DNA of 64,000 nucleotides from a virus. Taxonomy: Duplodnaviria > Caudoviricetes. Location of the stretch: positions 1-64,000 of the IMG/VR virus record IMGVR_UViG_3300011444_000011; one strand, written 5' to 3'. The notes beneath the pieces are model-generated. The model was not told the origin of the DNA. It did not search any database and saw nothing but the letters and a program-made list of their open reading frames with translations. Positions 1 to 52,342 of the stretch are shown piece by piece; positions within the stretch are counted from its first letter, which is position 1; each line of letters begins with the position of its first letter. The position numbers were made by a program, and so were the translations under genes.

Positions 1-1568
1 GGTTCATTGAACCAAGCACCATCGCTTCTGACAACCCAGCCGCAGTTCTCGCCGGCTTCTGACACCAGATGCCGGATCAAGTCGTCATAATTGCCGATCT
101 CTTTATCCTGATCGTTTTGTGATGACTTGACGCCGAACACCAGCTTCCACTTCGTCTTCTCCAGCACCCAGCCGCGTTGCGTCATTTCAGCAACTAACTT
201 GCTGTATTCTTGTCGATCGAAGTCAGATGCTGATGGAGCCGGCTGCGACGGTGCGTCGATTTGCAATATCAATCTGCCGTCTTTATGGGGTTTCAGAATA
301 CCTGGAATTGTGGCGATGCGTTCTGGAACGTCGGTCGTTGCTCCAAGAGCCTTAGCTGCTTCGACAGCAGACTTGACTTCTTTGAAGAAGAACCCGCCAG
401 TTTCCATTTCGTTCCCGCCCTTGAAGCGGGCAGCCGTTCTGATATCAGGATCACGATTTAGGTAGCATCTAGTCCAGCCGCTGCCGTCCTGATCCCACGA
501 CTCATGTTCCTGCACGTTCGGCGTGTGACGCCTCACGGCCCACCCACCACGTCGCATCGGATACGCGAAGCAATTCTGATCTGCTCCGGTTTCCCGGCCT
601 TCGCTGATCGTCTCGAACACGCCACGCATATTCAACGCGCGGTGTGCCTTCTTGAGATCGGCCGTGTGAGCAACAAGCATGTGATGATCCGTGTCGAACC
701 ACCACAATGCGTTATGCGTGTTCAGGAATTCCATTAACGCCCGATGTTCTTCGTCAAGCTGAACCTTCGGGTGCTGGCCGCAGAATTCCTCGAATGATAC
801 TGACCCGGCTTCTGGAACGAAGCCCGGCTTGTTCTTCTTCCTGGCTCCGCTGGCGACCTTGATGTGATCTTTCCAATTGATTGGAATATCAACTAGAGGC
901 TCACCTTGTTTTACCAGCTTCAAACCCATGCCGCCAGATCGGGCAAACTTACGGTGCCAAATCCAGATGTTCGAGCCGCAGTTGTCAACTTTGCTATCAA
1001 AATCAAAACCGGCCGCTGCCGACATCTTGGACAGGATCGCACGGGCGAGGGCCATGTGTTCAGTGTGATTTGCAGTATCAACTCCGTTGAGAAAGACGTA
1101 CAGGTGCAAGCCGTTGCCAGACGTGGATCGTCGAACCGTGACCCACGGAATCTTGCACGCTGTCTCCTGCACTTCCTTTAACTGCATGTCAGTGAGCTTC
1201 TGTTCGTGCCGCTCACTGTGTCCAGTAATGGCATCAAAATCAAAAGCCACATAGATGGATTTCTTATGCACCCAATCCCAGCCAGTCATGCCGATTCCCT
1301 CGGCATGCGCTTCGAGATCGAACTTCATCGCCGTGTCCGTGAACTCGGGCGTCGTGCTCGCGTGCAGCGGGATGCGGAAGTTCTTCCACGTCTGCTGCCC
1401 GTCGGACCAACCTTGCCACTGGTGTCCCTTGTACTCGCCCGTCACCCGTTCGCCGGCATCGCCAGCGACGTTGACTTGACATTCCATATCAAAGCTGTAT
1501 AGCTTCGCTAGGTCAGGCGGTGATGTTGCCATCAAAAAGTTCTTGATGGCTTGAGTCTTTGTGAGCAT
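1..1568 (-). CDS. AEP-superfamily primase-polymerase (partial, runs off the window)
   Basis: Hand translation from the ATG at 1568 (MLTKTQAIKNFL...) shows AEP motif I YVAFDFD, motif II RSTSGNGLHLY and a motif III-like KVD. It is not in the ORF track because no stop falls inside the window. Confidence 0.8.
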   Translation of the reverse strand, partial: MLTKTQAIKNFLMATSPPDLAKLYSFDMECQVNVAGDAGERVTGEYKGHQWQGWSDGQQTWKNFRIPLHASTTPEFTDTAMKFDLEAHAEGIGMTGWDWVHKKSIYVAFDFDAITGHSERHEQKLTDMQLKEVQETACKIPWVTVRRSTSGNGLHLYVFLNGVDTANHTEHMALARAILSKMSAAAGFDFDSKVDNCGSNIWIWHRKFARSGGMGLKLVKQGEPLVDIPINWKDHIKVASGARKKNKPGFVPEAGSVSFEEFCGQHPKVQLDEEHRALMEFLNTHNALWWFDTDHHMLVAHTADLKKAHRALNMRGVFETISEGRETGADQNCFAYPMRRGGWAVRRHTPNVQEHESWDQDGSGWTRCYLNRDPDIRTAARFKGGNEMETGGFFFKEVKSAVEAAKALGATTDVPERIATIPGILKPHKDGRLILQIDAPSQPAPSASDFDRQEYSKLVAEMTQRGWVLEKTKWKLVFGVKSSQNDQDKEIGNYDDLIRHLVSEAGENCGWVVRSDGAWFNE

Positions 1569-1645
1569 GTTTTGATACCAGTATCAACCTTGAATATCTT
1601 TCCAATATCAAATCAATTTGACTCCGCGACCGGCATACGGTCCCG

Positions 1646-1974
1646 ACATATAGGATAGTCCCAAACCGGAATTTTCCGGCAAAACTTACCGATTTATTTT
1701 GGGCAGGTCGCTAAGGTCATACGGCGCAACGGGTTACTACTTTGACTTACAACTCTTTATATTTAAGGTATAGGAAACCAGAAAAGAGAGAAGAAAAGAG
1801 AGTACCATAAGGGCGTACCTGTAAATGAGTGGTGGTAAGGGAAACAGTCAGCCCGACGGCCCGACCGTCGGCCCGTTCACTGCTTTGTTACCGCGCCCGC
1901 GCGAAGCAAACCGCGTGCCAAAAATTCCTAAAATTCCCCGCCGAAATTTGCCAGTTTGGGACTATTCTATATGT
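1646..1974. promoter_or_regulatory. Divergent promoter region with a 34-bp imperfect inverted repeat (core TTTGGGACTATYCTATATGT)
   Basis: 1646-1679 (minus, facing the primase) is nearly the reverse complement of 1941-1974 (plus, facing ParB). The same core recurs at about 61217-61230. Confidence 0.6.
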
Positions 1975-2072
1975 AGCGGTTGCACACTGCCATAGGTAGT
2001 CCCCTGATTTGATATTCGCAAATTTGCCTAGTTTGATACCAGTATCACAAACACTTCTGGAGTTCATTGAAG

Positions 2073-3053
2073 ATGTCAAACGCTGACAAAAAGCTCGACC
2101 TTCGTAACATTTCGATTTCCGATATCAGGGAGAACCCTGTTGCCCTCCGCGGTGTTGACCGCGAGAGCGACAAGTACAAGTCGGTTCGCGACAGCATCGC
2201 GGCCCGCGGCATCTTGCAGCCGATCAACGTCCGCGAGAAGAATGACCCGGATGGCAAGGTGTACTACGAGGTCGTGGACGGCCTGCAACGGTACAGTTGC
2301 GCCAAGGATGTCGGCCTGACGACGATTGGCGTCAGTGTGATTTCCGCATCAGACGCGGAAGTGCTCGAAACGCAGATCATCACCAACCTGTGCCGCGTTG
2401 ACACGAAGCCGGTGGAATTCACCAAGCAGCTTCAGCGCATGATCGTGATGAATCCGACGATGACCTTGTCGGAAATCGCCGAGCGCGTCAATCAGTCGCC
2501 CGCGTGGGTTACGGGCCGGTTGAGCCTGCTGAAACTGGACGCGAAAATCCAGGAATCGGTGGACGCCGGTGATATCAACGTCAGCAACGCCCAGGCGTTG
2601 TCGAAGTTGCCGAAAGAGGAACAGTTCAACTTCCTCGAACAGGCCATGCAGTTGCAGCCCGGCGAATTTCTGCCGATCGTGCAGAACCGCGTCAAGGAAC
2701 TCCGCGACGCTGCCAAGACCGGACAGGCTGCCGGCGAAACCCAGTTCGTTCCGACCTCGCACTTGCGCGGGAAGAAAGACCTGGAAGCCGAAATGGCGTC
2801 TCCCGCCGTCGGCCCGGCCATGTGCTCTGCGCTCGGTCTGACGACCGCTGCCCAGGGTTTCGCGGCTGCGATCAAGTTCGTGCTGTCGCGTGACGCGGAC
2901 TCGGAAGCGGCCCAGAAGGCCAAGTACGATGCCCGTGCCGCCGAACGTGCGGAAGCGAAGCAGAAGCGCGAAATCGAGCGTGCCGAGAAGAAGGCTGCCG
3001 AAGCGTCGGCCAACGCGGCCAAAGTCAAGGAAGCCGCAGGCGTCACCGCCTAA
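2073..3053 (+). CDS. parB: ParB/Spo0J-family protein 1 (ParB-N + HTH + Ala/Lys-rich coiled coil), with degenerate CTPase motifs
   Basis: SIAARGILQPINVR...VVDGLQRY...IITNLCR, followed by HTH TLSEIAERVNQSPAWVTGRLSLLKL. GGAG RBS upstream. Confidence 0.88.
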   Translation: MSNADKKLDLRNISISDIRENPVALRGVDRESDKYKSVRDSIAARGILQPINVREKNDPDGKVYYEVVDGLQRYSCAKDVGLTTIGVSVISASDAEVLETQIITNLCRVDTKPVEFTKQLQRMIVMNPTMTLSEIAERVNQSPAWVTGRLSLLKLDAKIQESVDAGDINVSNAQALSKLPKEEQFNFLEQAMQLQPGEFLPIVQNRVKELRDAAKTGQAAGETQFVPTSHLRGKKDLEAEMASPAVGPAMCSALGLTTAAQGFAAAIKFVLSRDADSEAAQKAKYDARAAERAEAKQKREIERAEKKAAEASANAAKVKEAAGVTA

Positions 3054-3089
3054 GTCTGATTTGAACATCAGATCGAAACGGTAAATAAC

Positions 3090-3129
3090 CGGCACCGTTT
3101 TGATATCAGTATCAAAACGGTGCCGTTTT
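3090..3129 (+). terminator. Hairpin/terminator with the dispersed palindrome at its apex
   Basis: CGGCACCGTTTTGATA-TCAG-TATCAAAACGGTGCCG followed by TTTT, directly after ParB1. Confidence 0.6.
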
Positions 3130-3157
3130 CATTCACTTTCACCAGAGAACCAAAAAC

Positions 3158-3892
3158 ATGGATTCGCCACAGATTAACGACCCTGAACTCATTGCACGTT
3201 CGCAGGACGCCGCATACGACAACGATCTCATTTCTGTTGACGCTGCCGGCGGCGACCTCATGCCGCAGATGGACGAGAAGCAGCTTGCTGCGGTTTCGTC
3301 CAGCGGTGATTTCCTTCCTCGTCTCCAACTCTTCGGCGGCAACTCCGATGCCTGCAAGAAGGGTCAAATTCAGATCGCCCATTACGGTCTTGTGACCGGC
3401 AAGGATACGATCGAAGACATGGGCAAGGAAGTTGATATCATCGTCATTTGCGGACGGCCGAAAGCCCTTCGCATTTGTGACGATGGCACCATCATCACCA
3501 AGTTTGATCCGAACGACGACGAGTTCAAGAAGATCATGGAAGACTCGAACGTCGCTGACTCCGGCTGTATGTACGGCCCGGAATTCATGGTGTTCGTGCC
3601 TGATGTTCAACGCTTCGCCACGTTCTTCATGTCGTCGAAGACCGCTCGCCGCTCCGCCGCCTCTGTCCACGCTCGATTGCGTAAGGCAGCCACGCTGAAG
3701 GCCGAGTTCATCGAGACGAAGAAGTATTCGTGGCACGGCCCCGTTTGCGTCCCGTGCTCCAGCCCAATGTCGGCTCCGAGCAACGAGGACATTGCAGCCG
3801 CGGTGAAGAAATTCACGTCGGCGAAAGAATCGTCCGTCGAGACAGTTGCAGCACCCGCCGGTGGCGATGCCGCAACCGCTCGCGCACGGTAA
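3158..3892 (+). CDS. Putative ssDNA-binding/replication protein
   Basis: Acidic N-terminus, LPRLQL motif, beta-rich core and position in the replication module. Family resemblance only. Confidence 0.4.
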   Translation: MDSPQINDPELIARSQDAAYDNDLISVDAAGGDLMPQMDEKQLAAVSSSGDFLPRLQLFGGNSDACKKGQIQIAHYGLVTGKDTIEDMGKEVDIIVICGRPKALRICDDGTIITKFDPNDDEFKKIMEDSNVADSGCMYGPEFMVFVPDVQRFATFFMSSKTARRSAASVHARLRKAATLKAEFIETKKYSWHGPVCVPCSSPMSAPSNEDIAAAVKKFTSAKESSVETVAAPAGGDAATARAR

Positions 3893-3963
3893 CACACTCG
3901 ACGCACCACTCATTGCGACGTGCATCAAGGTCGAGTTACGACCCGGCCTAATTAAGCCGGTTG

Positions 3964-3991
3964 GCCGGTTTGATACCAGTATCAAACCGGC
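3964..3991 (+). terminator. Hairpin with the dispersed palindrome at its apex
   Basis: GCCGGTTTGATACCAGTATCAAACCGGC followed by TGTTT. Confidence 0.5.
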
Positions 3992-3996
3992 TGTTT

Positions 3997-4069
3997 GGTG
4001 GGGATAGCTTAACGGTAAAGCACTGGCACTGATAACGCCAGAGTCTAAGGTTCGACTCCTGCCCTGCCT
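3997..4069 (+). tRNA. Degenerate tRNA-like gene (possible Ile-GAT; 19-nt anticodon arm)
   Basis: D arm TAGCTTAACGGTAAAGC, anticodon arm CTGGC-ACTGATAAC-GCCAG, T loop GGTTCGACTCC. T and acceptor stems are imperfect. Confidence 0.55.
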
Positions 4070-4154
4070 CTTTGACCCTTCGTACTAAACGCAAGAAATA
4101 CACCGGGCCTATGTCCCGGAAATGATGTATCGCAATCATCAGGGTCATGCCACA

Positions 4155-4688
4155 ATGATACCGCAAATCAAACCGATCGGCGGGACACAAATCTGCTGGG
4201 ACGTATTTCTTCAAGCCTGTACAGATTCGCTGGGGTATTCGCCAATTCGCGGTGTTGACTCACTCGCCCGCGAATTGTCGGACCCGGCCAAACTGCTTGC
4301 TTCACTGGCTGCGTTCCACAACAAGCAAAACGTCAAGGCTCCGCTCGCAGCGATTAGGAACGCTGGCTCACTGCTTCGGCATTTGAGCTATGCGTTCCTA
4401 ATCTACTGCGATGAGCATTTGATATCCGATATCAGGGAACGGTCCCTGCTGAATGTGACTTCGACAAACGCCGCAGATGGCGAGCGGGTTGCATACGTGA
4501 GCGGAAGCCTCTTTGACTTCCATACTGCAACGCTGGAGTGTTGCACCGAAGACTCGCCATTTGATATCCGATATCTATTCGATGCCTTCGTACTCTACTT
4601 TGAGTCGATCGGCCTCGGAGACATCTGGCACGATCAACGGAAGAAAACTCTCAAAGACAAAACCTTCCTTTTGGAATACATACCATGA
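4155..4688 (+). CDS. ThyX/Thy1-fold-like protein, apparently degenerate
   Basis: LLRHLSYAFLI and YVSGSLFDF...SPFDIRYLF resemble ThyX segments, but the RHR-x7-S signature is absent. Confidence 0.4.
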   Translation: MIPQIKPIGGTQICWDVFLQACTDSLGYSPIRGVDSLARELSDPAKLLASLAAFHNKQNVKAPLAAIRNAGSLLRHLSYAFLIYCDEHLISDIRERSLLNVTSTNAADGERVAYVSGSLFDFHTATLECCTEDSPFDIRYLFDAFVLYFESIGLGDIWHDQRKKTLKDKTFLLEYIP

Positions 4689-6664
4689 CGCCAGAAGTTC
4701 TCAAACTTACGATCGGCAAGTACCGATACCCGGTAAATATGTATCGGTTCGAGGGCCGACTATACTTCCAGTTTCCGTTCAACAAGAATTTGATGGCGGA
4801 AATCAAGTGCATGGCCGGGAGTAAGTTTCACTTCTACAACGAAACAGAAGAACGTAAGAAGTTCCTCGCCGCGGAAATGGGCACCGCGAAGATTTGGTCT
4901 GTCACTGATAACCAGCGAAACTGGTTTCAAATTCAGATGATGCAAGGCATCAATATGTTCGAGCGGTACGATTCCCCGCTCAAGCCGGTAGAGCCGCGAC
5001 GTGACTGTTTGAGAGAGAACCAGAAGTTGGGCCTCCAGTTCACGATGACGCGGCATTATTGCATTCTCGCTGCTGAAATGGGTACTGGTAAAACGCTGGT
5101 AGCCATTGAGACGATGGAGCAATCCGGGTTTGAGGACTGGTGGTACGTCTGTCCGCGCGGCGTGATGAAAGAAATCGAGAGGCAACTCCGATCTTGGAAA
5201 TCAACCGCCAAGCCTCGTCTGATGACCTATGAAGGTCTGACGAAGGAAATGAAGAACTGGCCCGAAGGGAAGAAGTACCCCGGCGGAGTTATCTTCGATG
5301 AATCAAGCCGAACCAAGAACCCATTCGCAATCAGAAGTCAAGCGGCCAAATCACTGGCTGACGGCATCCGAAACGATTGGGGAGAACACGGCTATGTGAT
5401 ATTGATGTCAGGATCACCGGCTCCGAAAGCCCCGGTGGACTGGTGGTCGCAATGTGAGATCGCGTGTCCTGGCTTCCTGCGTGAAGGTGACGTTGACAAG
5501 TTCAAATATCGGCTCGGCATCTTCGAGGAAAGCTCGTCGTTGCAAGGCCAGAAGTTCCTCAAGAAAGTGGCGTGGCGGGATGACGACAAACGCTGCAACA
5601 TCTGTGGACTCTACGAAGATCATATTATTCACAGCGAACTTGCTGCGTCAATGGGAGAAGAGAAGCCGCACGCCTTCTTCGGATCAACCAACGAAGTCGC
5701 CAATCTCTACAAGAGAATGGAAGGCTTGGTCATGGTTCAATTCAAGAAGGATTGCGCTGACCTGCCCGACAAACAATACCAGATCATCGAATGCACACCC
5801 AGCAAAGCAATGCTTCGTGCCGCATCGTCGATCACGAACCGGACGAAGAGCGCGGCGCAGGCATTGATCCTGCTGCGAGAATTGTCCGACGGCTTCCAAT
5901 ATCTGGAAGAGCCGGACGGCGAAGTCAGTTGTCAAGTCTGTGCTGGCACCGGGGAGTGTGATGATTTTGAAATCAAACCGGAGTATCAGCAGGCTTATGA
6001 CGCTGGAGACCTTACGTTTGAGCAGGCTGTCGCTGACGAGAAAGTCCAGAAGGTCAGGGCACCGTGCTACGTCTGCGACGCCAAAGGTATGGTGCCGCGT
6101 TATGTCCGAGAGACGCAGGAAGTTGAATGCCCGAAGGAACAAGCCCTTCGGGACTTGCTCGATTATCATTACGATGATGGACGGCTGGTTGTCTACGCTG
6201 GCTTCACTGGATCAATCGAGCGTTGCTGTCGGATTGCGACAGCGGAAGGCTGGGCGATCATTCGTGTAGACGGCCGCGGATGGTCGATGGCCAACGCGGA
6301 CGGTACGATGATGCACGGCGACGCGCTTGATATCTTCCAAGATAAACAGGAAGAACATCCGCGTGTCTGCTTCATCGGCCAGCCCGGTGCGGCTGGTATG
6401 GGTTTGACGTTGACAGCAAGTAAGTCGATCGTCTACTACAGTAACGACTTCAACGCCGAGAGCCGGATTCAGTCGGAAGACCGTATCCATCGTCTCGGTA
6501 TGGACGTGAACAAGGGAGCGACGATTTACGATCTGATCCACTTGCCAACCGATATGCTCGTTCTGAACAATCTGAAGGAAAAGCGACGGTTACAGTCCAT
6601 GACGATGGGACAGGTCGCCGACGCGCTTAAAGGCATCGGAGAAAACGACGAAAGGCTATTCTGA
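4685..6664 (+). CDS. SNF2-family (SF2) helicase with zinc-finger insertions
   Basis: EMGTGKT, IFDES, SGSP, GAAGMGLTLT and QSEDRIHRLG, with insert CQVCAGTG...CYVCDAKG. Confidence 0.9.
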   Translation: MTPEVLKLTIGKYRYPVNMYRFEGRLYFQFPFNKNLMAEIKCMAGSKFHFYNETEERKKFLAAEMGTAKIWSVTDNQRNWFQIQMMQGINMFERYDSPLKPVEPRRDCLRENQKLGLQFTMTRHYCILAAEMGTGKTLVAIETMEQSGFEDWWYVCPRGVMKEIERQLRSWKSTAKPRLMTYEGLTKEMKNWPEGKKYPGGVIFDESSRTKNPFAIRSQAAKSLADGIRNDWGEHGYVILMSGSPAPKAPVDWWSQCEIACPGFLREGDVDKFKYRLGIFEESSSLQGQKFLKKVAWRDDDKRCNICGLYEDHIIHSELAASMGEEKPHAFFGSTNEVANLYKRMEGLVMVQFKKDCADLPDKQYQIIECTPSKAMLRAASSITNRTKSAAQALILLRELSDGFQYLEEPDGEVSCQVCAGTGECDDFEIKPEYQQAYDAGDLTFEQAVADEKVQKVRAPCYVCDAKGMVPRYVRETQEVECPKEQALRDLLDYHYDDGRLVVYAGFTGSIERCCRIATAEGWAIIRVDGRGWSMANADGTMMHGDALDIFQDKQEEHPRVCFIGQPGAAGMGLTLTASKSIVYYSNDFNAESRIQSEDRIHRLGMDVNKGATIYDLIHLPTDMLVLNNLKEKRRLQSMTMGQVADALKGIGENDERLF

Positions 6665-6828
6665 TGTCAAGATCAAATTGCCGATCGAAAGGTGCAGGTT
6701 ATGAATGGTGGAACAAGCGCCCAATGGCCGGAGCTTCGCCGTCGGCACTTAACAAAAGAATCTGCAACCAGATCGAGCGTGCCAGAGCCAAACGCGAGGT
6801 CGAACGTGCCAAATCCGAATTGTCCTGA
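6664..6828 (+). CDS. Small basic protein (54 aa)
   Basis: MSRSNCRSKGAGYEWWNKRP... is translationally coupled (TGATG) to the helicase and is below the ORF track cutoff. Confidence 0.5.
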   Translation: MSRSNCRSKGAGYEWWNKRPMAGASPSALNKRICNQIERARAKREVERAKSELS

Positions 6829-7399
6829 ATGCCACGGAACTGGAATCTATCGCGGCGGGCTGCACGGCCACCCTGAACCGTGCAGCCTGTGCTCGCGTGA
6901 GATTCAGTTCGGCGACGGCGTGACGATTGCTCCTGAATTCGAGAATCCGCCTATTACGATAAAGGCTCCGCAGGCTATTGACCAGTCTGACTACATGATG
7001 GTGGTCAGGGCCGCATGGCGTCACTCGTGGGAAGAACGGCTCGAACGAAAGGGTGAAGTTACTCTAATCGGTAATAGCAAGGAATCTGTGATTATGAACT
7101 CAATGGGCTACATCGCCCACTTGCATAACATTCAGCTTCCATTGCCGGAAGATATTGACGATATTCTTTCTGTGCTCCGGTCGGCGGTCGATGCCGCAGC
7201 CGGTATGGCGATATGGAGAGTAGCCCGATCCCGCGGGCCGGTATACACAGCGCGAGAGTGTCCTATCTCTTTTCACAGAGCATCTGATGATGTTCTTGAG
7301 CAGGTCTACATCTGCCCTGATGTTAAAATCAAATTGGGTGGCCCACGGGTATATGGGTCGGCTGTATTCCACTACTACGCTGATTGGATGCGAAGATGA
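6806..7399 (+). CDS. Hypothetical protein with N-terminal CxxCxGxG zinc finger
   Basis: CPECHGTGIY...PEPCSLC. GTG start inferred (track start 6692). Confidence 0.6.
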   Translation: MPNPNCPECHGTGIYRGGLHGHPEPCSLCSREIQFGDGVTIAPEFENPPITIKAPQAIDQSDYMMVVRAAWRHSWEERLERKGEVTLIGNSKESVIMNSMGYIAHLHNIQLPLPEDIDDILSVLRSAVDAAAGMAIWRVARSRGPVYTARECPISFHRASDDVLEQVYICPDVKIKLGGPRVYGSAVFHYYADWMRR

Positions 7400-8559
7400 C
7401 AAAACCCTCCGAGGGGAAAACCAAGAGCGAAAGTCAGAAGGCAATGGACCCAAGGCCCACAAAGGAACAACAGGAGACTTTGGCTTTACGATCGCAGGTG
7501 ACTCTGTTGACGGTCGAACGAAACCGACTCAAGCGCGAACTCAAATTGGGTGCGATGGAGTACGGTATCTTTCGTGCGCTGGTTGACGAGATGCAGGCCG
7601 TCGTGAGTCCGCTGGAGTCATTGCCGCCGGTTCGTAGAGTGTACGAACCGAACACTGTGAAAGAAACGCTGGTCATGCACTTGTCGGATATGCACGCCGA
7701 TGAGGAAGTTCATCCGCACATGGTTGGCGGACTCGAACGGTATGGCCTCGACGTTGCAACATGCCGTGCCGAAAGGTACGTTGATACTGTAATCAAATTC
7801 TCGCAAGAGACTTTGGCCAATCATCAGTTTGACAACCTTGTCATTTTGAGCTACGGCGACCACACGTCAGGAGAAATCCACGGCGGCGTCAGTCACTCCA
7901 GCTATCATAATCAGTTCAGGAACTCGCTGGCGATCGGTCAGCTTCAAGCCCTGATGATTCGTGATCTGGCTCCGTACTTCAAGAAGGTTGACATCCTGTG
8001 CTTGCCCGGCAATCATGGTCGCCGGACTCCGAAGAAGGAATACAATGGTCCCTGGAACAACTGGGACTATTTGATATCCGAAATCGCAAGAATGCACTGT
8101 GCTGATCTGAAGAACGTGGCGTTCCAGATTCCTGAATGTTTCAGCGTCTGCCTCAACATTGAGGGCCACCAGTTCTACATCGCCCACGGCGACGACATTA
8201 AGTCATGGAACTCGATTCCGTTCTACGGGATCGAACGCAAGACGCGACGGCTGGTTGCCCTGCATCATGCGATGACCGACACGAAGGTTCGTTACTTCGT
8301 CTTCGGCCACTTCCACATGCTGTCAACGATGAGCGACTTGAATGGCGAGACGATCATCAATGGCGCTTGGATCGGTACGAGTCCCTATGGTTACGAGAGC
8401 TTCTCCGGCTACCGTGAACCGAAACAGTTGATCCACGGGGTACATCCGAAGTACGGGATGACGTGGCGACTGGACGTGAAACTGAAAGACGTTGAGGCCG
8501 AAGCCAAAGGCCCGCAGCGTTACAAAATGATCCTTGCGGACAAGGAATTTTCCCAATAG
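7396..8559 (+). CDS. Calcineurin-like metallophosphoesterase with N-terminal coiled coil
   Basis: SDMH, GD, GNHG, HGD and GHFH motifs in order. Confidence 0.85.
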   Translation: MTKPSEGKTKSESQKAMDPRPTKEQQETLALRSQVTLLTVERNRLKRELKLGAMEYGIFRALVDEMQAVVSPLESLPPVRRVYEPNTVKETLVMHLSDMHADEEVHPHMVGGLERYGLDVATCRAERYVDTVIKFSQETLANHQFDNLVILSYGDHTSGEIHGGVSHSSYHNQFRNSLAIGQLQALMIRDLAPYFKKVDILCLPGNHGRRTPKKEYNGPWNNWDYLISEIARMHCADLKNVAFQIPECFSVCLNIEGHQFYIAHGDDIKSWNSIPFYGIERKTRRLVALHHAMTDTKVRYFVFGHFHMLSTMSDLNGETIINGAWIGTSPYGYESFSGYREPKQLIHGVHPKYGMTWRLDVKLKDVEAEAKGPQRYKMILADKEFSQ

Positions 8560-8599
8560 AACTCTTTTGATATCAGTATCAACTTCCGAGGAATGAACC

Positions 8600-9460
8600 A
8601 TGACCCAGCCCGTCGCTCCTACAACGGGAATGCTCGTTCTCGACATTCCGATGGCGCGTATCTACTGTGACAGTAATTTCAACTGTCGCGGTGCGATCCG
8701 GCCATTTGATGTCGCTGATCTTGCAACGTCAATCCGGGATCAAGGATTACAATTCGCTATCAGTGTGCAACCTGCGGCGGATGTCCAGGGCGGTTTGCCA
8801 GTGAATCAAGAGGATGGCTTGCCATACGAGTATCGTATCGTGGCAGGTCATCGCCGGTACACAGCAGTCAAAGTGCTGAAGTGGGCCACGATTCCTTGCA
8901 CCGTCCGCGAGAACCTTGACGAAAAGAAGGCTCGTATCCTTAATCTCGTTGAGAATTTCCAGCGACAAGACTTGAATATCCTTCAAGAAGCGGAAGCACT
9001 CAAGCACCTGCACGAAGCAGGCGTGCCCCGCGAAACTGTCGCCCGCGAAATTGGTATGAGCGGCGGCTGGGTACAGGTTCGTTTTAATCTGCTCAATCTG
9101 CCGATCGAGATTCAGCAAGAGGCGGCTGCTGGGATGATTACCCAGTACCACATCAAGACGTTGTGTACTTTGAAGTCGCCGGAAGCACAGTACGAAGCTG
9201 TGCGTAAAATCAAAGAGGCCAAGCTGAAAGGCGAGAAGGCTCCGACTATCGGCGTCAGGAAGGCGAAGACCGCCACCATCAAGAAGAAGAGAACCGAGTC
9301 TGAAATGTTTGATATGATTGAGATTCTGGCGCAGACAACGCTGGGATATGGCATCCATACACGGGTTCTTGCATGGGCCGCAGGGGAAATTTCGTCGGCG
9401 GAATTCTTCTGCGATATCAAGAAAGCGGACCCGACGTTCTTTCCGCCGCCGGAATTTTGA
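8600..9460 (+). CDS. parB: ParB/Spo0J-family protein 2 (canonical CTPase motifs + HTH)
   Basis: LATSIRDQGL...IVAGHRRY...LVENFQRQDL, then HTH RETVAREIGMSGGWVQVRFNLLNLP. Confidence 0.92.
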   Translation: MTQPVAPTTGMLVLDIPMARIYCDSNFNCRGAIRPFDVADLATSIRDQGLQFAISVQPAADVQGGLPVNQEDGLPYEYRIVAGHRRYTAVKVLKWATIPCTVRENLDEKKARILNLVENFQRQDLNILQEAEALKHLHEAGVPRETVAREIGMSGGWVQVRFNLLNLPIEIQQEAAAGMITQYHIKTLCTLKSPEAQYEAVRKIKEAKLKGEKAPTIGVRKAKTATIKKKRTESEMFDMIEILAQTTLGYGIHTRVLAWAAGEISSAEFFCDIKKADPTFFPPPEF

Positions 9461-9468
9461 GGAACCTA

Positions 9469-9675
9469 ATGTACGAAATCTTGCTGCGTATGTTGGCGTG
9501 GTTCACTTGGGCTCACATTCAGTGGCTCATGGTTCAGTGTCTGAACGACAAGGGACTGTATCACGCCAGTTACAAGATGGCTATTCGGCTGTCCACGAAA
9601 GAGTACCAGAATAAGACCTGGGACTCGATCACCCTCGCCGACGCGATGAAAGCGCTGAAGCCCAATGATCCGTAA
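9469..9675 (+). CDS. Hypothetical protein
   Basis: GAGG RBS; fits the gene chain. Confidence 0.55.
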   Translation: MYEILLRMLAWFTWAHIQWLMVQCLNDKGLYHASYKMAIRLSTKEYQNKTWDSITLADAMKALKPNDP

Positions 9676-10033
9676 TGTAACCCACGAATACGATATCGTG
9701 ACGGGGACTGATTTCAGTATCAGTTTCGCCCGTCACGGTATCTACGTTTCGGGACACGTTCACACCTGGAATTGGCAGCCAGAATGTATCGGTACTCGCG
9801 GCATCTTCGCCGTCCGGCTCGAACTCTGGAGCCCGTTCCTGGCCGGGACGGTCTGGTGGCAGGAGAGAACCTGGAACCCGAAAGAGGGAGTTGGTGAGAT
9901 GCAATTCACCAGCACGCCCGAAGGGACTCCGATCCTGATAATGAACGAGCACAAGGAACCGTTGCTCGAATGGCGTAAGGGTCAGATCACCTACCACAAC
10001 CGAAGACATCAAAATGATCTACTTCGACACTGA
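9665..10033 (+). CDS. Hypothetical protein
   Basis: Overlapping ORF in the operon. Confidence 0.55.
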   Translation: MIRNVTHEYDIVTGTDFSISFARHGIYVSGHVHTWNWQPECIGTRGIFAVRLELWSPFLAGTVWWQERTWNPKEGVGEMQFTSTPEGTPILIMNEHKEPLLEWRKGQITYHNRRHQNDLLRH

Positions 10034-19485: not shown

Positions 19486-19586
19486 TCCTGGCAACAGGCT
19501 AGAGAATCTCTTTTGAAAGGTGGTGTTAATGCAGCAATCTTAGGTTTGTTTGATTTTTGATTCCAATATCACTTTTGGAGATTACG

Positions 19587-20003
19587 ATGCGTAAACGCAA
19601 CATGCAACTCGGTGCAACAATCCGAGAGTATCTCACGAATCACCCAGAAGCTACGACTGAAGAAGTCATGGCCGCGACGGGTGCCAAAGTCAAACAACAG
19701 GTCTACCAGCAAAAGACCTACATGAAGCTGAACAACAAGGTTCGGCGAACAACGTCGCGTATGACGGAGTCGCAGCGACCTGCGATTGCCGCCGCGAATG
19801 GTGTCCCCGATCCGGTGAACATGGAAGTATCGCTGCCGGCGGCTGGACTCCGCCTCAAGCTCAAGGAAGGCAAGAAGATGGTGGGAACCCTGGGTATTTC
19901 GCACCAGGGCATTCGTTTCACGCCGGCAAACGGAAAGAAGATGCCGGCCAATCAAATGCCGTGGCGGGTGCTGAAAGCCCTGTCAGGCATCGAGGTCGGC
20001 TAG
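19587..20003 (+). CDS. Basic hypothetical protein, possible N-terminal HTH
   Basis: IREYLTNHPEATTEEVMAATG; GGAG RBS. Confidence 0.55.
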   Translation: MRKRNMQLGATIREYLTNHPEATTEEVMAATGAKVKQQVYQQKTYMKLNNKVRRTTSRMTESQRPAIAAANGVPDPVNMEVSLPAAGLRLKLKEGKKMVGTLGISHQGIRFTPANGKKMPANQMPWRVLKALSGIEVG

Positions 20004-20260: not shown

Positions 20261-20335
20261 GTCCGCTGTAGCTCAGTGGTAGAGAGGGACGGGCAAGACC
20301 TGTCCAGGTCGCGGGTTCGAATCCCGCCAGCGGAC
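20261..20335 (+). tRNA. tRNA-like gene with a non-canonical anticodon arm (identity undetermined)
   Basis: Acceptor GTCCGCTG/CAGCGGAC, D arm TAGCTCAGTGGTAGAG, perfect T arm GCGGG-TTCGAAT-CCCGC. The anticodon arm GGACGGG-CAAGA-CCTGTCC lacks U33. Confidence 0.75.
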
Positions 20336-20349
20336 CTGTGTGTTGCGTT

Positions 20350-39627: not shown

Positions 39628-39804
39628 ATGCTGAAGGCTTTCAATTCGTTTCAACTCGTAACCGCTTTTGCCCTTGCTCCGTTCGGGATTCAGTGGCTCT
39701 CGAACGCGACGTTCAGCGGCGCGCCGGCCGCGTTCTGGGTTGGCATCGTTGCCTACGTCGTCAGCTTCATCGCCATGTGCGTTGCCGTCCACGACTCGGT
39801 ATGA
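39628..39804 (+). CDS. Small membrane protein
   Basis: Two hydrophobic segments; GGAG RBS. Confidence 0.5.
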   Translation: MLKAFNSFQLVTAFALAPFGIQWLSNATFSGAPAAFWVGIVAYVVSFIAMCVAVHDSV

Positions 39805-40118
39805 TAACCCAGTTCCTGACGTTCCTGGGCCTCGTTGGAGTTCTTATTGTGGTAGTTCGTGTCATCCAAAGGGAACGCATGACTTACAACCGATGCGTCA
39901 ACTGCCGGGGCATATACGACGGCGACCATTGCCCGTGTCTCGACCACAAGACGCTGACGCCGCAGATGATAGCGGAGCGTCTAGGTCGGGTGCTAGGTGA
40001 CGCCTTGTCGCAAGGCATTGAGATTCGGGTTCCTGCGGAAGCACTGCATGATTTGACTGATCCCGATTTGGTGTGGAGAATCACAAAGGGTATCCACTCC
40101 GTCAGGATGCGTCAGTAG
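39801..40118 (+). CDS. Membrane-anchored hypothetical protein
   Basis: N-terminal TM and CVNC..CPC. Confidence 0.5.
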   Translation: MITQFLTFLGLVGVLIVVVRVIQRERMTYNRCVNCRGIYDGDHCPCLDHKTLTPQMIAERLGRVLGDALSQGIEIRVPAEALHDLTDPDLVWRITKGIHSVRMRQ

Positions 40119-40161: not shown

Positions 40162-40271
40162 GAAGCTCTGTGCCTGAGCATGGCCAAAGGGTGATGGTAA
40201 CAAGAGCGGGAAGGTGGACGTTACCAGTCCTAGTCCTACCGCCCGCAGGTTCGAATCCTGTCAGAGATTTC
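40162..40271 (+). ncRNA. tRNA-like RNA with an expanded, possibly pseudoknotted anticodon/variable region
   Basis: Acceptor-like CTCTG/CAGAG, class II D arm TGCCTGAGCATGGCCAAAGG, T arm GCAGG-TTCGAAT-CCTGT, and a TGGTAAC/GTTACCA stem with an 18-nt loop. Confidence 0.6.
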
Positions 40272-47074: not shown

Positions 47075-47707
47075 ATGAGAATAATCAGCGGGTTCCATGA
47101 TTATTACGATCCACTTTGCAAGCACGACGCTGACCGAGAGACGCTGTACATACGGAAAACCGAAGAGGCAGCACCGATCGAGTTTCCCCGCGTCTGGCTT
47201 GACAATACGTGCAGAATCCGACTGCTATGCTTCGCCGGGAAACTGATACCGCATGTCGAAATCAACATCATGCACCGCGGCGAGTGGAAGACAAAGGTGT
47301 GCTGGCAGCGGGCGAAAGCCAAGGATCATGTCGAAGAGTTCACGACGAAGGCCAATTTCAGGATGCTGAAACGCCGTGCCTACGGTATCTTGCGTGACCT
47401 GGATCGGTTCTTCGACTGGAAGCCAGAGAACGTCTACCCCAATACACCGATCTGGTTCGCAACCAGCGAGGCCACTACGACCGACGGATACCGGACATGG
47501 AAGAAGCGGACGTTACTGAATCCGCGGGTTATGGACGTGTATCCGGGGTTTGTGAAAATCCTGCCACCGGCACAGGCGTATCAGGAACTGGTGATGTGGC
47601 ATGGAAGAATGGCGCGGCCCGAACCTAACGTCCCGGAAATGAGCGACGCGGATAAGATCGCTGGCCACGGCTTCGATAAGTTCTCATTCAGAAAGCCTAA
47701 GCAATGA
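47075..47707 (+). CDS. Conserved phage hypothetical protein
   Basis: MRIISGFHDYYD...AYQEL...DKIAGHGFDKFSFRK. Confidence 0.65.
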   Translation: MRIISGFHDYYDPLCKHDADRETLYIRKTEEAAPIEFPRVWLDNTCRIRLLCFAGKLIPHVEINIMHRGEWKTKVCWQRAKAKDHVEEFTTKANFRMLKRRAYGILRDLDRFFDWKPENVYPNTPIWFATSEATTTDGYRTWKKRTLLNPRVMDVYPGFVKILPPAQAYQELVMWHGRMARPEPNVPEMSDADKIAGHGFDKFSFRKPKQ

Positions 47708-47931
47708 ACAACCCGTTAGATATTGATATACGCCGGGCCGTCTGTAACAGCCCGCACTGCTCTTACCCGCACGCCCAGAGACTCACGCAGTTGATGCTTG
47801 CCGAAGAACGACTGGCACGCCTGGAAGCGGGTGGCGTTAATAACTGGGAGTGGTATCACGAATCCCTGCATCCGACGGATAAGCCATCACTGGATGATTT
47901 TGAGGAGGCGCTGAATAATGTCCAACCCTGA
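47704..47931 (+). CDS. Hypothetical protein
   Basis: LEAGGVNNWEWY motif; ATGA coupling. Confidence 0.55.
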   Translation: MNNPLDIDIRRAVCNSPHCSYPHAQRLTQLMLAEERLARLEAGGVNNWEWYHESLHPTDKPSLDDFEEALNNVQP

Positions 47932-48257: not shown

Positions 48258-48563
48258 GTGGTGATGGAAAGACTCATTGAAATCGTGATCGAAGACACAA
48301 TCGCCGGCAGGCTTCGCTGGGAATGCGGCGGTCACAGCGATACGTGGTCGGCCAGAGCTTCGACGTATACACTGTCCCAAGTAACCAAAGGTATCTGGAA
48401 CTGGTACTTCGTCATGTACACGAACTCCGGTGTCAGTCGCCTTAAAATCAGGCCGTGGCAGTGGAGAAAAATCCAAGCCGCCCTACCGCCCAAACTTCTG
48501 ACACCGGAACAAGCAGCGGCGGCTATTGGATTCAATGACGCAGAGGTCGGATTGCATGAGTAG
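48258..48563 (+). CDS. Hypothetical protein
   Basis: In the gene chain. Confidence 0.5.
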   Translation: MVMERLIEIVIEDTIAGRLRWECGGHSDTWSARASTYTLSQVTKGIWNWYFVMYTNSGVSRLKIRPWQWRKIQAALPPKLLTPEQAAAAIGFNDAEVGLHE

Positions 48564-48566
48564 CAC

Positions 48567-48696
48567 GGAAGTCATGGTGGAAATACTGGGCCGCAAGCCC
48601 TGTCGGTAGACACGCAGCCCTCTAACTCGCGGGCCGTTAGAAGGCTGTACCCTGTTGCAATGCGGGGTGTACGGGTTCGAGTCCCGTTGACTTCCT
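48567..48696 (+). tRNA. tRNA-Leu-like gene with hairpin insertions in the D loop and anticodon loop
   Basis: Acceptor GGAAGTCA/TGACTTCC, D arm GTGGAA...GGTAGACAC, anticodon stem CAGCC/GGCTG around a 23-nt loop, long variable arm, T arm ACGGG-TTCGAGT-CCCGT. Confidence 0.75.
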
Positions 48697-48709: not shown

Positions 48710-49006
48710 ATGAGCAATAATCTACGGTTGATGTGCAACCCGCCGGATGTTGACGGATCGCGGTTGGCGAGTCTCTGTGTTCAAGAACTCCGTGTTCTTT
48801 TAGACTTGAGAGTGAAGGCGTACCACCAGCATCTTGACGAGTATCGGAACGACAGTTGCGCGGAGAACAACTTCACTTTCATCAAACAAATCGTCGAGGT
48901 TTTGAACGCCATGCAGAATACTGACACAGTCATGCGTGATGGCAGTATCAAACCCGGATGCAAGCTCACCCTTTTCCAGCCGCCTTATTACAAGGATAAC
49001 CGATGA
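48710..49006 (+). CDS. Hypothetical protein
   Basis: In the gene chain. Confidence 0.55.
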   Translation: MSNNLRLMCNPPDVDGSRLASLCVQELRVLLDLRVKAYHQHLDEYRNDSCAENNFTFIKQIVEVLNAMQNTDTVMRDGSIKPGCKLTLFQPPYYKDNR

Positions 49007-51339: not shown

Positions 51340-51618
51340 ATGAAAATCTCACCATCTGATATCCGCACCAGAGATCATTTCTGGGATACGTTCGATAAGA
51401 ACGAGATCGAATGCGCGGCCCGCAACATCGTCATCGCTTCCCAGAAGAAGGGTGATTGGTTCGATTTCACGGAAGATGATATTAACATCGGACCTTGGGG
51501 CAACTTCTTCGTGGTCAACGGGTACTTGTCGCGAGTAGGCAAGACGAAATATCGCGTGCTCCCCGAGTTCGTGATGAAACTAAGCAAATATCTAAAGAAG
51601 GGAGTCATCAGTGTCTAA
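51340..51618 (+). CDS. Hypothetical protein
   Basis: AGGA RBS. Confidence 0.6.
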   Translation: MKISPSDIRTRDHFWDTFDKNEIECAARNIVIASQKKGDWFDFTEDDINIGPWGNFFVVNGYLSRVGKTKYRVLPEFVMKLSKYLKKGVISV

Positions 51619-52342
51619 TACGATTTGGCACGGCGATTGCGTCAAGTTTGTTCATCAGTTGAGGCCGGTCAAGTGCATCATCGCTGATCCGCCGGACAAT
51701 CTCGATTTGGGGTATGACGGCTTTACAGACTTCAACCCCGATTACTACGGGTGGCTTGGTTCCCTGATCCGGGCATCCGTCGAGCGGTGCGACCATTTCT
51801 GGTTGAGCTATTATCACGCTCACGACCTCGCAATATCGAGCATTGTCTACGATGTTGTACGCCGGAAGGGACTGGACTGGCACAAGTACCTTTGGCGGTT
51901 CACGTTCGGCCAGCATAAGGAAACTGATTGTGGGAGCGGTTACAGAACAATCCTCAGATTATCGCAGCCTTCGCAGCCGCTTAATACATCAGCGGTTCGG
52001 GTGCCCAGCCTGCGACAGACGTTATACAACGACCCACGAGCTAATCCGGCAGGAAGGGTTCCAGACGATGTCTGGGAGTTCCCGCGTGTTACCGGCAACA
52101 GCCATGAACGAAGAGCATGGCATCCGACGCAGCATCCCGTAGCCGTGTACTCCCGGATACTGCGGCTGTCAACGGCACCGGGCGATAAGGTGGTGGACCT
52201 GTTCGCGGGCACGGGCACACTTTTCAGAGCGAACCACTCATACAAGCTCTCGGAACGACGGGAATGCTCGGCAGTTGATATCAGTATCAAATACTGCCAG
52301 GAGATCGCTAAGGAACATCAACTGGAGATCAAGACCATTTGA
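51611..52342 (+). CDS. N4-C/N6-A DNA methyltransferase (beta class) with variant catalytic motif DPPD
   Basis: IWHGDC, IIADPPDN, DVWEF, HPTQHP, VVDLFAGTGT. Confidence 0.82.
   Translation: MSNTIWHGDCVKFVHQLRPVKCIIADPPDNLDLGYDGFTDFNPDYYGWLGSLIRASVERCDHFWLSYYHAHDLAISSIVYDVVRRKGLDWHKYLWRFTFGQHKETDCGSGYRTILRLSQPSQPLNTSAVRVPSLRQTLYNDPRANPAGRVPDDVWEFPRVTGNSHERRAWHPTQHPVAVYSRILRLSTAPGDKVVDLFAGTGTLFRANHSYKLSERRECSAVDISIKYCQEIAKEHQLEIKTI

What the first reader, a model, noticed from the sequence alone, without database searches (positions are those of the whole stretch)
48567..48696. tRNA-Leu-like gene with two inserted hairpins; the anticodon is masked and ambiguous (TAG or CTA)
Seen: a Leu-type body with a D-loop insert (48585-48603, GGGC-CGCAA-GCCC hairpin) and anticodon loop CTCTAACTCGCGGGCCGTTAGAA, in which TCTAAC pairs with GTTAGA. 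Removing 16 nt at 48622-48637 gives CT-TAG-AA (Leu). Removing 16 nt at 48626-48641, the canonical 37/38 intron position, gives CT-CTA-AA (amber suppressor). The inserts are far too short to be self-splicing introns. Inference: either a protein-spliced pre-tRNA (unusual for a bacterial virus) or a mimic with a sequestered anticodon.
Basis: partly seen in the sequence, partly recalled or inferred. Interest (0 to 1): 0.75.

Follow-up and report, generated by a model that had tools for sequence, protein, structure and literature searches.

The report
Phage tRNA mimic with built-in hairpins
A 94-kb bacteriophage carries a leucine-type tRNA gene with two extra hairpins; the D-loop hairpin recurs, with compensating mutations, in an unrelated lake-metagenome genome, so it looks like a retained, selected part of a non-decoding tRNA look-alike and not an intron or random damage.

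Summary
Window 48567-48696 (+) is a class-II, Leu-type tRNA body. It has an 8-bp acceptor, D stem, elbow nucleotides, 7-bp variable arm and a perfect T arm. A 19-nt hairpin sits in the D loop, and the anticodon "loop" is 23 nt, with its would-be anticodon paired in a 6-bp helix. Default ARAGORN and Rfam miss it. Deleting both inserts in silico gives tRNA-Leu(TAG) or a CTA tRNA, depending on register.

Splicing is not supported. There is no bulge-helix-bulge motif, the phage has no RtcB, EndA or Rnl2-type ligase, and TAG shows no sign of recoding.

The new result is a lake-metagenome genome (L102/L112/L114) with no detectable protein similarity to this phage. It carries a tRNA-like gene with the same 19-nt D-loop module: 2-bp closure, 1x1 pyrimidine mismatch, 4-bp stem, 5-nt loop. 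Two of its four stem pairs, and 7 of 8 acceptor pairs, are changed compensatorily. Its anticodon arm differs (5-nt loop, no 16-nt insert).

The conserved unit is therefore a tRNA top half plus a D hairpin over a non-decoding bottom. Best reading (about 0.5): a tRNA mimic with retained expansion segments. Function is inferred, not shown. This scan's other notes on the element cover this same stretch only. Only two lineages are known.

The parts
48567..48696 (+). Whole tRNA-shaped RNA gene (130 nt, no encoded CCA)
   Evidence: The covariance model R1 scores it at 123.7 bits.
48567..48574 (+). Acceptor stem, 5' strand. It pairs with 48688-48695 (8 bp). In the canonical 7-bp register, position 1 is 48568 and 48567 would be G-1 paired to C73.
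   Evidence: Seven of 8 pairs are changed on both sides relative to L102, with pairing kept.
48577..48613 (+). D arm. The stem is 48577-48579 with 48611-48613. The loop keeps A14, A15 and G18G19 (48605-48606).
   Evidence: Direct reading and the ARAGORN drawing after insert removal.
48585..48603 (+). 19-nt D-loop expansion: 2-bp closure AC/GT, 1x1 U.U mismatch, 4-bp stem GGGC/GCCC, 5-nt loop CGCAA.
   Evidence: L102 and L114 have the same length and layout, with stem GAGG/CCTC (two double compensatory changes) and A-U changed to G.U in the closure. The chance of this layout in a random gap is about 1e-6.
48615..48647 (+). Extended anticodon arm: 5-bp stem CAGCC/GGCTG, C.A mismatch (48620 and 48642), 6-bp helix 48621-48626 with 48636-48641, 9-nt loop 48627-48635. 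CUA (48622-48624) is paired with UAG (48638-48640).
   Evidence: This extension is not present in L102/L114, which have a 5-nt loop CUAAA on a 5-6 bp stem.
48649..48668 (+). Long variable arm (7 pairs including two G.U, 6-nt loop). This is the class-II tRNA hallmark.
48671..48687 (+). T arm: ACGGG - TTCGAGT - CCCGT.
   Evidence: There is a partial Rfam tRNA hit at 48670-48687 and one compensatory pair change relative to L102.
48258..48563 (+). Upstream ORF (101 aa, no family hit). Its TAG stop ends 3 nt before the element.
48710..49006 (+). Downstream ORFan (98 aa). Its ATG lies 13 nt after the element.

Best explanation
The locus is a tRNA-derived gene that makes a tRNA mimic, not a decoder.

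Shown:
- It keeps what a class-II tRNA needs to fold into an L shape and be handled as a tRNA: acceptor helix, U8, A14, A15/U48, G18G19, the TTCGA T loop and a long variable arm.
- It has a structured 19-nt hairpin built into the variable part of the D loop.
- Its anticodon arm is turned into a ~12-bp rod in which the would-be anticodon is base-paired.
- The D-loop hairpin is a conserved, selected module shared with an unrelated genome.
- The anticodon arm is not conserved.

Inferred:
- Both inserts stay in the mature RNA as expansion segments and are not introns.
- The RNA is co-transcribed with the flanking accessory genes.
- It is cut out by RNase P and 3'-end enzymes and receives CCA from the host.
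- It engages tRNA-binding proteins through its intact top half but cannot enter the decoding site.

The most likely job is as a decoy or sponge, or as a protein-recruiting handle, for a host factor that recognises tRNAs. Candidates include a tRNA-cleaving defence nuclease, a synthetase or a modification enzyme. The D hairpin may act as an added binding or shielding element.
For: Architecture and stability.

A homologous module occurs in L102/L112/L114. The insert length (19 nt), the AC...TGT closure, the 1x1 pyrimidine mismatch, the 4-bp stem and the 5-nt loop were not imposed by the search pattern. All 66 pair cells form standard pairs, and 10 of 22 pairs are changed on both sides. Slid controls give 33-53% paired. 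The random expectation for the layout is about 1e-6.

The four L102-to-L114 substitutions fall in loops or make A-U into G.U.

The genomes share no protein similarity, so the RNA module itself is what they have in common.

The anticodon arms differ and cannot decode: a 23-nt 'loop' here and a 5-nt loop in L102.

The phage has no splicing or repair enzymes.

In L102 and L114 the element is a stand-alone gene with a conserved promoter-like site about 38 nt upstream, preceded by a terminator-like hairpin.

The local context is an ORFan-rich accessory region with a Gam-like RecBCD inhibitor and a DNA methylase. The closest relative lacks this region.
Against: - There is no expression or end-mapping data.
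- Only two independent lineages are known, so covariation rests on very few events.
- No binding partner is known, and the decoy role is pure inference.
- The 16-nt anticodon insert has no homolog, so nothing shows that it is selected.
- The discriminator is not the A73 that leucyl-tRNA synthetase requires. It is C in the 7-bp register and U in the 8-bp register.
- No promoter or terminator was predicted next to the phage copy.
- The phage's other tRNA genes also score poorly. This could mean general decay.
Confidence: 0.5

Rival explanations
1. Decaying tRNA-Leu pseudogene. The two hairpin-forming insertions (for example template-switch or slippage products at loop hot spots) are neutral damage, and the RNA has no role.
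For: No close homolog of the phage copy exists in IMG/VR, JGI metagenomes or GTDB genomes. The other tRNA-like genes of this phage are also abnormal or low-scoring, whereas the nearest relative has four ordinary tRNAs. The discriminator is not A73. The region is ORFan-rich and dispensable in the relative.
Against: Every cloverleaf helix is fully paired with standard pairs; only the anticodon-arm extension carries a single C.A mismatch. The D insert recurs in an unrelated genome with compensatory changes, and the only within-lineage substitution in a helix (A-U to G.U) preserves pairing. The element is tightly packed between ORFs in a compact genome, with a 3-nt gap upstream and a 13-nt gap downstream.
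Confidence: 0.2
2. Protein-spliced pre-tRNA. Both inserts are removed by an unidentified (host) endonuclease and ligase, giving tRNA-Leu(UAG) or a CUA amber suppressor.
For: In-silico removal of both inserts gives a canonical class-II tRNA. Both inserts lie in loops. The anticodon-insert pairing resembles the anticodon-intron helix of eukaryal and archaeal pre-tRNAs. The D insert is conserved at exactly 19 nt in two lineages, as a recognition element might be. Many bacteria do carry RtcB (control).
Against: There is no bulge-helix-bulge or bulge-helix-loop geometry at either insert (direct reading). The phage has no EndA, RtcB or Rnl2, and no splicing or RNA-repair enzyme appeared in the Pfam sweep of the 93 ORFs of 110 aa or more, which displayed 25 of 27 matched families. 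The gene content points to a bacterial host: a Gam-like RecBCD inhibitor, and distant kin among Rhizobium and Ralstonia phages. The L102 homolog stays uncallable after D-insert removal and has a 5-nt anticodon loop. The standard code gives 91% coding density and intact long genes, TAG makes up 14% of stops in a crude ORF set, and no fused frames appear on read-through.
Confidence: 0.15
3. Cis-acting tRNA-like punctuation. The element is kept only as an RNase P / RNase Z cleavage or stability signal that separates the upstream and downstream messages.
For: It sits 3 nt after a stop codon and 13 nt before the next start, on the same strand, with no promoter or terminator of its own predicted. 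RNase P needs only the acceptor/T minihelix, which is intact.
Against: The L102/L114 homolog is a stand-alone gene. It is convergent with one neighbour and divergent from the other, and has its own promoter-like site. A processing signal would not need a conserved D-loop hairpin, the elbow nucleotides or a variable arm.
Confidence: 0.15

Closest known systems
Bacterial class-II tRNA-Leu
   Same: The D arm sequence (GGTGGAAAT...GGTAGACAC), A14, A15/U48, G18G19, long variable arm, TTCGA T loop and 5-bp anticodon stem are all present. In-silico removal of the inserts gives an ARAGORN tRNA-Leu(TAG) call.
   Different: It has a 19-nt hairpin in the D loop and a 23-nt anticodon 'loop' with the anticodon paired. 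The discriminator is not A73, an 8-bp acceptor helix is possible, and the Rfam tRNA model does not detect it.
Archaeal and eukaryal intron-containing pre-tRNAs, including multi-intron crenarchaeal tRNAs with D-loop introns (review PMC4090602)
   Same: The interruptions are short (16-19 nt) and lie in the D loop and anticodon loop. The insert pairs with the anticodon.
   Different: There is no bulge-helix-bulge motif and no endonuclease or ligase in the phage. The virus looks bacterial. The homolog is not restored to a tRNA by removing its insert.
Non-canonical and irregular tRNAs (allo-tRNAs 8/4 and 9/3, tRNA-Sec 8/5; PMC5389517, PMC7609411)
   Same: It has a class-II body with an extended acceptor helix (8 + 5 bp, as in bacterial tRNA-Sec). 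Irregular tRNA-like genes with extra loops and G-1 have been reported from metagenomes and phages.
   Different: Those retain a 7-nt anticodon loop. None is described with a hairpin inside the D loop. The tRNA-Sec model scores only 17 bits against a cut-off of 47.
tRNA-mimicking non-coding RNAs (bacterial YrlA Y RNA, PMC4201824; tmRNA tRNA-like domain; the stable species 1 and 2 RNAs of phage T4, recalled from memory)
   Same: The tRNA top half is kept while the decoding part is replaced. They are presumably handled by tRNA processing enzymes, and they occur in phages and mobile DNA.
   Different: The 5' and 3' ends lie in a normal acceptor stem, unlike YrlA. There is no mRNA-like domain and no G3.U70, unlike tmRNA. 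Rfam and ARAGORN find neither family here.
Phage tRNAs with altered anticodon loops that evade anticodon nucleases (PMC10264068); defences that cut tRNA anticodon arms (PMC13056530)
   Same: It is a phage-encoded tRNA-type gene whose anticodon arm departs from the host-type target, and it lies in an accessory region with counter-defence-type genes.
   Different: Those tRNAs still decode and differ by point changes. Here the anticodon is buried in a helix, and a second structured insert is present.

Membership tests
Canonical bacterial tRNA-Leu (decoder) | 7-nt anticodon loop with U33 and an exposed anticodon | tested here: not met
   The loop region is 23 nt and forms a 6-bp helix plus a 9-nt loop. 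Default ARAGORN makes no call.
Canonical bacterial tRNA-Leu (decoder) | A73 discriminator (a major LeuRS identity element, from established knowledge) | tested here: not met
   C48695 in the 7-bp register, T48696 in the 8-bp register. L102 has A73 in the 7-bp register.
Canonical bacterial tRNA-Leu (decoder) | Long variable arm, G18G19, A14, A15/U48 and the TPsiC loop | tested here: met
Canonical bacterial tRNA-Leu (decoder) | Rfam RF00005 score at or above 29 bits | tested here: not met
   No full-length hit. Only the T arm scores, at 12.9 bits.
Protein-spliced (BHB) intron-containing pre-tRNA | Bulge-helix-bulge (3-nt bulge, 4-bp helix, 3-nt bulge) or a relaxed BHL motif at the exon-intron junctions | tested here: not met
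   For the anticodon insert, only a 1x1 C.A mismatch separates the helices. In the canonical 37/38 register the 4 central pairs do not form. For the D insert, the layout is 2 bp, a 1x1 mismatch, 4 bp and a 5-nt loop.
Protein-spliced (BHB) intron-containing pre-tRNA | A splicing endonuclease (EndA/Sen) and an RNA ligase (RtcB or Rnl) are available | tested here: not met
   The phage record has no PF01974, PF01139 or PF09414 match, and the controls fire. The host is unknown, so host enzymes could not be tested.
Protein-spliced (BHB) intron-containing pre-tRNA | Removing the inserts restores a canonical tRNA | tested here: inconclusive
   Met for the phage copy. Not met for the L102 homolog.
Group I intron-interrupted bacterial tRNA | A self-splicing intron of about 200 nt or more with the group I core | tested here: not met
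   The inserts are 19 and 16 nt, and Rfam RF00028 does not match here.
tRNA-Sec | 8/5 acceptor/T helices, 6-bp D stem with a 4-nt loop, UCA anticodon | tested here: not met
   An 8 + 5 bp arrangement is possible, but the D stem has 3-4 bp with a large loop and there is no UCA. RF01852 scores 17.3 bits against a cut-off of 47.
tmRNA / YrlA-type tRNA mimics | Match to the family model and its topology (tag ORF with pseudoknots, or a Ro-binding stem formed by the RNA's ends) | tested here: not met
   ARAGORN -m finds nothing. Rfam has no hit even at E up to 10.
New family proposed here: class-II tRNA-like RNA with a 19-nt D-loop hairpin | Acceptor, D stem, 19-nt D-loop module and T arm, all pairing, with compensatory change between members | tested here: met
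   Model R1 scores the four copies at 124-152 bits and ordinary Leu tRNAs at 35 bits or less.

The most novel reading that the evidence does not exclude
This is the first sighted member of an undescribed family of tRNA-scaffold RNAs carried by phages and mobile DNA. In this family a conserved hairpin grafted into the D loop is the functional handle, for example binding or blocking a host tRNA-directed defence nuclease or enzyme. The anticodon arm is free to vary or to be masked. This phage would then deploy it, perhaps with its other abnormal tRNA-like genes, as an RNA counter-defence decoy.
Probability: 0.3. Interest if true: 0.8.

Novelty: new variant of a known kind. Interest (0 to 1): 0.62.

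Why it matters
Phage tRNA genes are currently being reinterpreted as weapons in the conflict over tRNA-cleaving defences. A tRNA look-alike that keeps the recognisable top half but buries its anticodon and carries a conserved extra hairpin would be a different solution from the nuclease-resistant decoding tRNAs described so far. It would also add a structural class (a D-loop expansion segment) that is absent from the one review of non-canonical tRNAs checked here (PMC7609411).

There is a practical point too. Default tRNA finders and Rfam miss these genes. The pattern scans also turned up other phage class-II tRNA top halves with hypervariable bottoms, so the phenomenon may be under-counted.

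Tried and rejected
- Exact and gapped DNA patterns from the element were run against IMG/VR (8 scans), JGI metagenomes (2) and GTDB genomes (2). Apart from L102, every hit was a chance match in coding DNA or an ordinary Leu tRNA.
- The downstream ORF, taken as a synteny handle, is an ORFan. The upstream ORF has no PHROG family and was not searched further.
- The closest phage (PolA 44% identical) lacks the whole 29-61 kb accessory region. Its Leu tRNAs are not sequence homologs.
- The inserts are not a repeated mobile element. They are not repeated in the genome, and one exact 11-mer elsewhere does not extend.
- Amber suppression and TAG recoding: nothing supports either. The frame stays open through the element after the upstream TAG and ends in an ATGA overlap with the next start, but the translated peptide looks non-coding. 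I treat this as coincidence.
- attP-type partial tRNA: rejected, because the full tRNA body is present and no integrase was seen.
- HD/YhaM exoribonuclease linkage (adjacent in L102, nearby in L082): this phage has no HD protein, and orthologous HD loci lack the element.
- L082 and other oversized tRNA-like genes as family members: model R1 scores them no better than ordinary Leu tRNAs.
- A weak Rv2179c-like exoribonuclease hit did not reproduce.
The 13-289 kb contigs that carry variants of the L102 neighbours (P0075-P0084) could not be fetched.

Full report
**What is there**

The window is the first 64 kb of a 94,423-bp IMG/VR virus record that CheckV rates 97% complete.

At 48567-48696 on the + strand the sequence reads as a class-II tRNA. 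It has these parts:
- an 8-bp acceptor helix;
- U8 and G9;
- a 3-bp D stem flanking an E. coli-type Leu D loop;
- a 5-bp anticodon stem;
- a 7-pair variable arm;
- a perfect T arm with loop TTCGAGT.

Two stretches do not belong to a normal tRNA:
- 19 nt at 48585-48603, inside the D loop. They form a small hairpin.
- 16 extra nt in the anticodon loop. These make TCTAAC pair with GTTAGA around a 9-nt loop, so the would-be anticodon is double-stranded.

The fold is much more stable than shuffled sequence (-58.8 kcal/mol, z = -3.65, 0 of 200 shuffles).

Standard tools miss the gene:
- Default ARAGORN and Rfam gathering thresholds give nothing.
- Permissive Rfam gives only tRNA-Sec at 17 bits.
- ARAGORN in intron mode forces a wrong register.

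Deleting both inserts in silico gives tRNA-Leu(TAG) or a CTA tRNA, depending on where the 16 nt are cut. Deleting only one insert gives no call.

**Genome context**

The virus is a tailed phage. It encodes family A DNA polymerase, SNF2 and UvrD helicases, ATP-dependent DNA ligase, endonuclease VII, three ParB-domain proteins, a DNA methylase and a minor tail protein.

The standard genetic code gives about 91% coding density. In a crude ORF set, stops are TGA 98, TAA 44 and TAG 23.

The element lies 3 nt after the TAG stop of a 101-aa ORF and 13 nt before the ATG of a 98-aa ORFan, all on the same strand. No promoter or terminator is predicted nearby.

The surrounding 29-61 kb stretch consists mostly of small ORFs with no family. 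The exceptions are a Gam-like RecBCD inhibitor at 47704-47931 and a methylase at 51611-52342.

The only detectable relative has a PolA 44% identical to this phage's. It is syntenic on both sides but lacks this whole region. It carries four ordinary tRNAs, none of them sequence-similar to the element.

**Are the inserts introns?**

They are far too short for group I introns.

For protein splicing, the defining bulge-helix-bulge geometry is absent:
- In the anticodon arm, a single C.A mismatch separates the two helices.
- In the canonical 37/38 register, the four central pairs do not form.
- The D insert is laid out as 2 bp, a 1x1 mismatch, 4 bp and a 5-nt loop.

Six-frame family searches of the whole phage find no RtcB, no EndA-type endonuclease and no Rnl2-type ligase, and the control genomes respond correctly. 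A Pfam sweep of 93 ORFs shows no RNA-repair enzyme.

Nothing suggests that TAG is read through:
- The long genes are intact.
- No adjacent frames fuse across TAG.
- The frame that stays open through the element translates into a non-protein-like peptide.

**The key new evidence**

Pattern scans that fixed only the D-arm flanks and the T loop, leaving the insert free at 10-30 nt, found one metagenome contig, L102 (WLWF01009949.1). The same locus appears in two independent assemblies, L112 and L114.

On its minus strand L102 has a tRNA-like gene with these features:
- an acceptor helix, U8 and G9;
- the same D arm, interrupted by an insert of exactly 19 nt with the same layout: AC...GT closure, a pyrimidine-U mismatch, a 4-bp stem and a 5-nt loop;
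- a T arm and a long variable region;
- a 5-nt anticodon loop, and no 16-nt insert.

The stem of the D hairpin is GAGG/CCTC there and GGGC/GCCC here. Two of its four pairs are changed on both sides.

Across the shared helices, all 66 pair cells are standard pairs, and 10 of 22 pairs carry double changes (7 of 8 in the acceptor). Sliding the 3' partners drops pairing to 33-53%.

The probability that a random gap would show this layout is about 1e-6.

L114 differs from L102 at four positions. Three are in loops. The fourth turns the closing A-U pair into G.U.

The L102-type contigs share no protein similarity with this phage. In those contigs the element is a stand-alone gene with a conserved promoter-like site about 38 nt upstream.

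The element sits at the edge of a variable segment:
- Contigs whose neighbouring HD gene is 96% identical lack it.
- L114 has a different 3' flank.
- L113, which shares the adjacent 87-aa ORF, carries a gene next to it whose product has an HNH-like CxxC/H motif (my reading of the sequence; it matches only phrog_15103, unknown function).

Whether the carrier is a cell or a very large phage remains open.

**Interpretation**

What the two lineages share is a tRNA top half, a long variable region and a D-loop hairpin. What differs is the anticodon arm, and it cannot decode in either.

This pattern fits a tRNA mimic whose inserts are retained expansion segments better than it fits a pre-tRNA. It also argues against plain decay.

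It also argues against a purely cis-acting processing signal, because the homolog is transcribed on its own.

I therefore put about 0.5 on a non-decoding tRNA mimic. Its likely role is as a decoy, or as a protein-binding handle, for a host tRNA-directed factor. That role is inferred from the anatomy, from the accessory-region context, and from published work on tRNA-cleaving defences and phage tRNA countermeasures (PMC10264068, PMC13056530). It is not shown.

The rivals are a neutral relic (0.2), a spliced tRNA (0.15) and operon punctuation (0.15).

**Comparison with what is known**

The body is bacterial tRNA-Leu-like, but it fails the decoder criteria on the anticodon loop, A73 and the Rfam score.

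It resembles multi-intron archaeal tRNAs only in where the inserts sit.

It could have an 8+5 acceptor/T arrangement like tRNA-Sec, but it fails that family's D-arm and anticodon criteria.

A review of non-canonical tRNAs lists no D-loop hairpin.

A covariance model built from the three distinct copies scores them and L112, a duplicate of L102, at 124-152 bits. It scores ordinary Leu tRNAs and other oversized phage tRNA-like genes at 35 bits or less. The family as defined is therefore small and distinct. No further members turned up in IMG/VR.

**Limits**
- Only two lineages are known.
- There are no expression data.
- The host is unknown.

Noticed in passing
window 40162-40271 (+): A second tRNA-like locus that no tool calls. 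It has T arm CAGG-TTCGAAT-CCTG and an 8-bp acceptor with one G.A mismatch. It can be read either with a GGTAAC-18 nt-GTTACC hairpin at the anticodon position, or as a Val(TAC)-like body with a 23-28 nt insert in the D region. It also follows a TAG-ending ORF (39693-40118).
   Followed up: partly
window 20262-20336 (+) and 3997-4070 (+): The two 'ordinary' tRNA genes are also odd. 'Leu-AAG' has a class-I body with C33 in place of U33 and can form a 7-bp stem with a 5-nt loop. 'Ile-GAT' scores 28.6 bits, below the Rfam cut-off. The syntenic sites in the nearest relative hold well-scoring Thr, Leu, Leu and Ile tRNAs.
   Followed up: partly
window 19557-20003, 39693-40118, 48258-48563: The ORFs directly upstream of three of the four tRNA-like loci end in TAG, which makes up only about 14% of stops in a crude ORF set. 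After 48563 the frame stays open through the whole element and stops in an ATGA overlap with the next start codon. This is probably coincidence, but it is unexplained.
   Followed up: partly
L097:215-364, 600-703, 929-1040 (also L083, L099): A phage contig carries an array of three paralogous Leu-type tRNA top halves with near-identical acceptor, D arm and T arm. Their middle regions are hypervariable, giving total lengths of 104-150 nt. Default ARAGORN calls none of them.
   Followed up: partly
L082:3151-3274 (+): A phage contig has a Leu-type tRNA-like gene with a 27-nt hairpin inserted at the same D-loop site (between GGAAAT and GGTAGAC). The layout is again closure, 1x1 mismatch and helix, but with a 6-bp stem, a 9-nt loop and only a 3-bp anticodon stem. 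Model R1 does not separate it from ordinary Leu tRNAs.
   Followed up: partly
L087 (IMGVR_UViG_3300042879_005260) 1300-9700: A phage locus with about 20 tRNA genes including a TTA-anticodon suppressor, a GOLLD RNA (306 bits), a group I intron and an oversized tRNA-like gene at 6467-6562. Separately, L091 has a phage tmRNA gene next to another oversized tRNA-like gene.
   Followed up: no
window 47704-47931 (+): A small ORF matches phrog_6234, host RecBCD nuclease inhibitor (Gam-like), at E = 7.7e-12. It lies about 640 nt upstream of the element.
   Followed up: no
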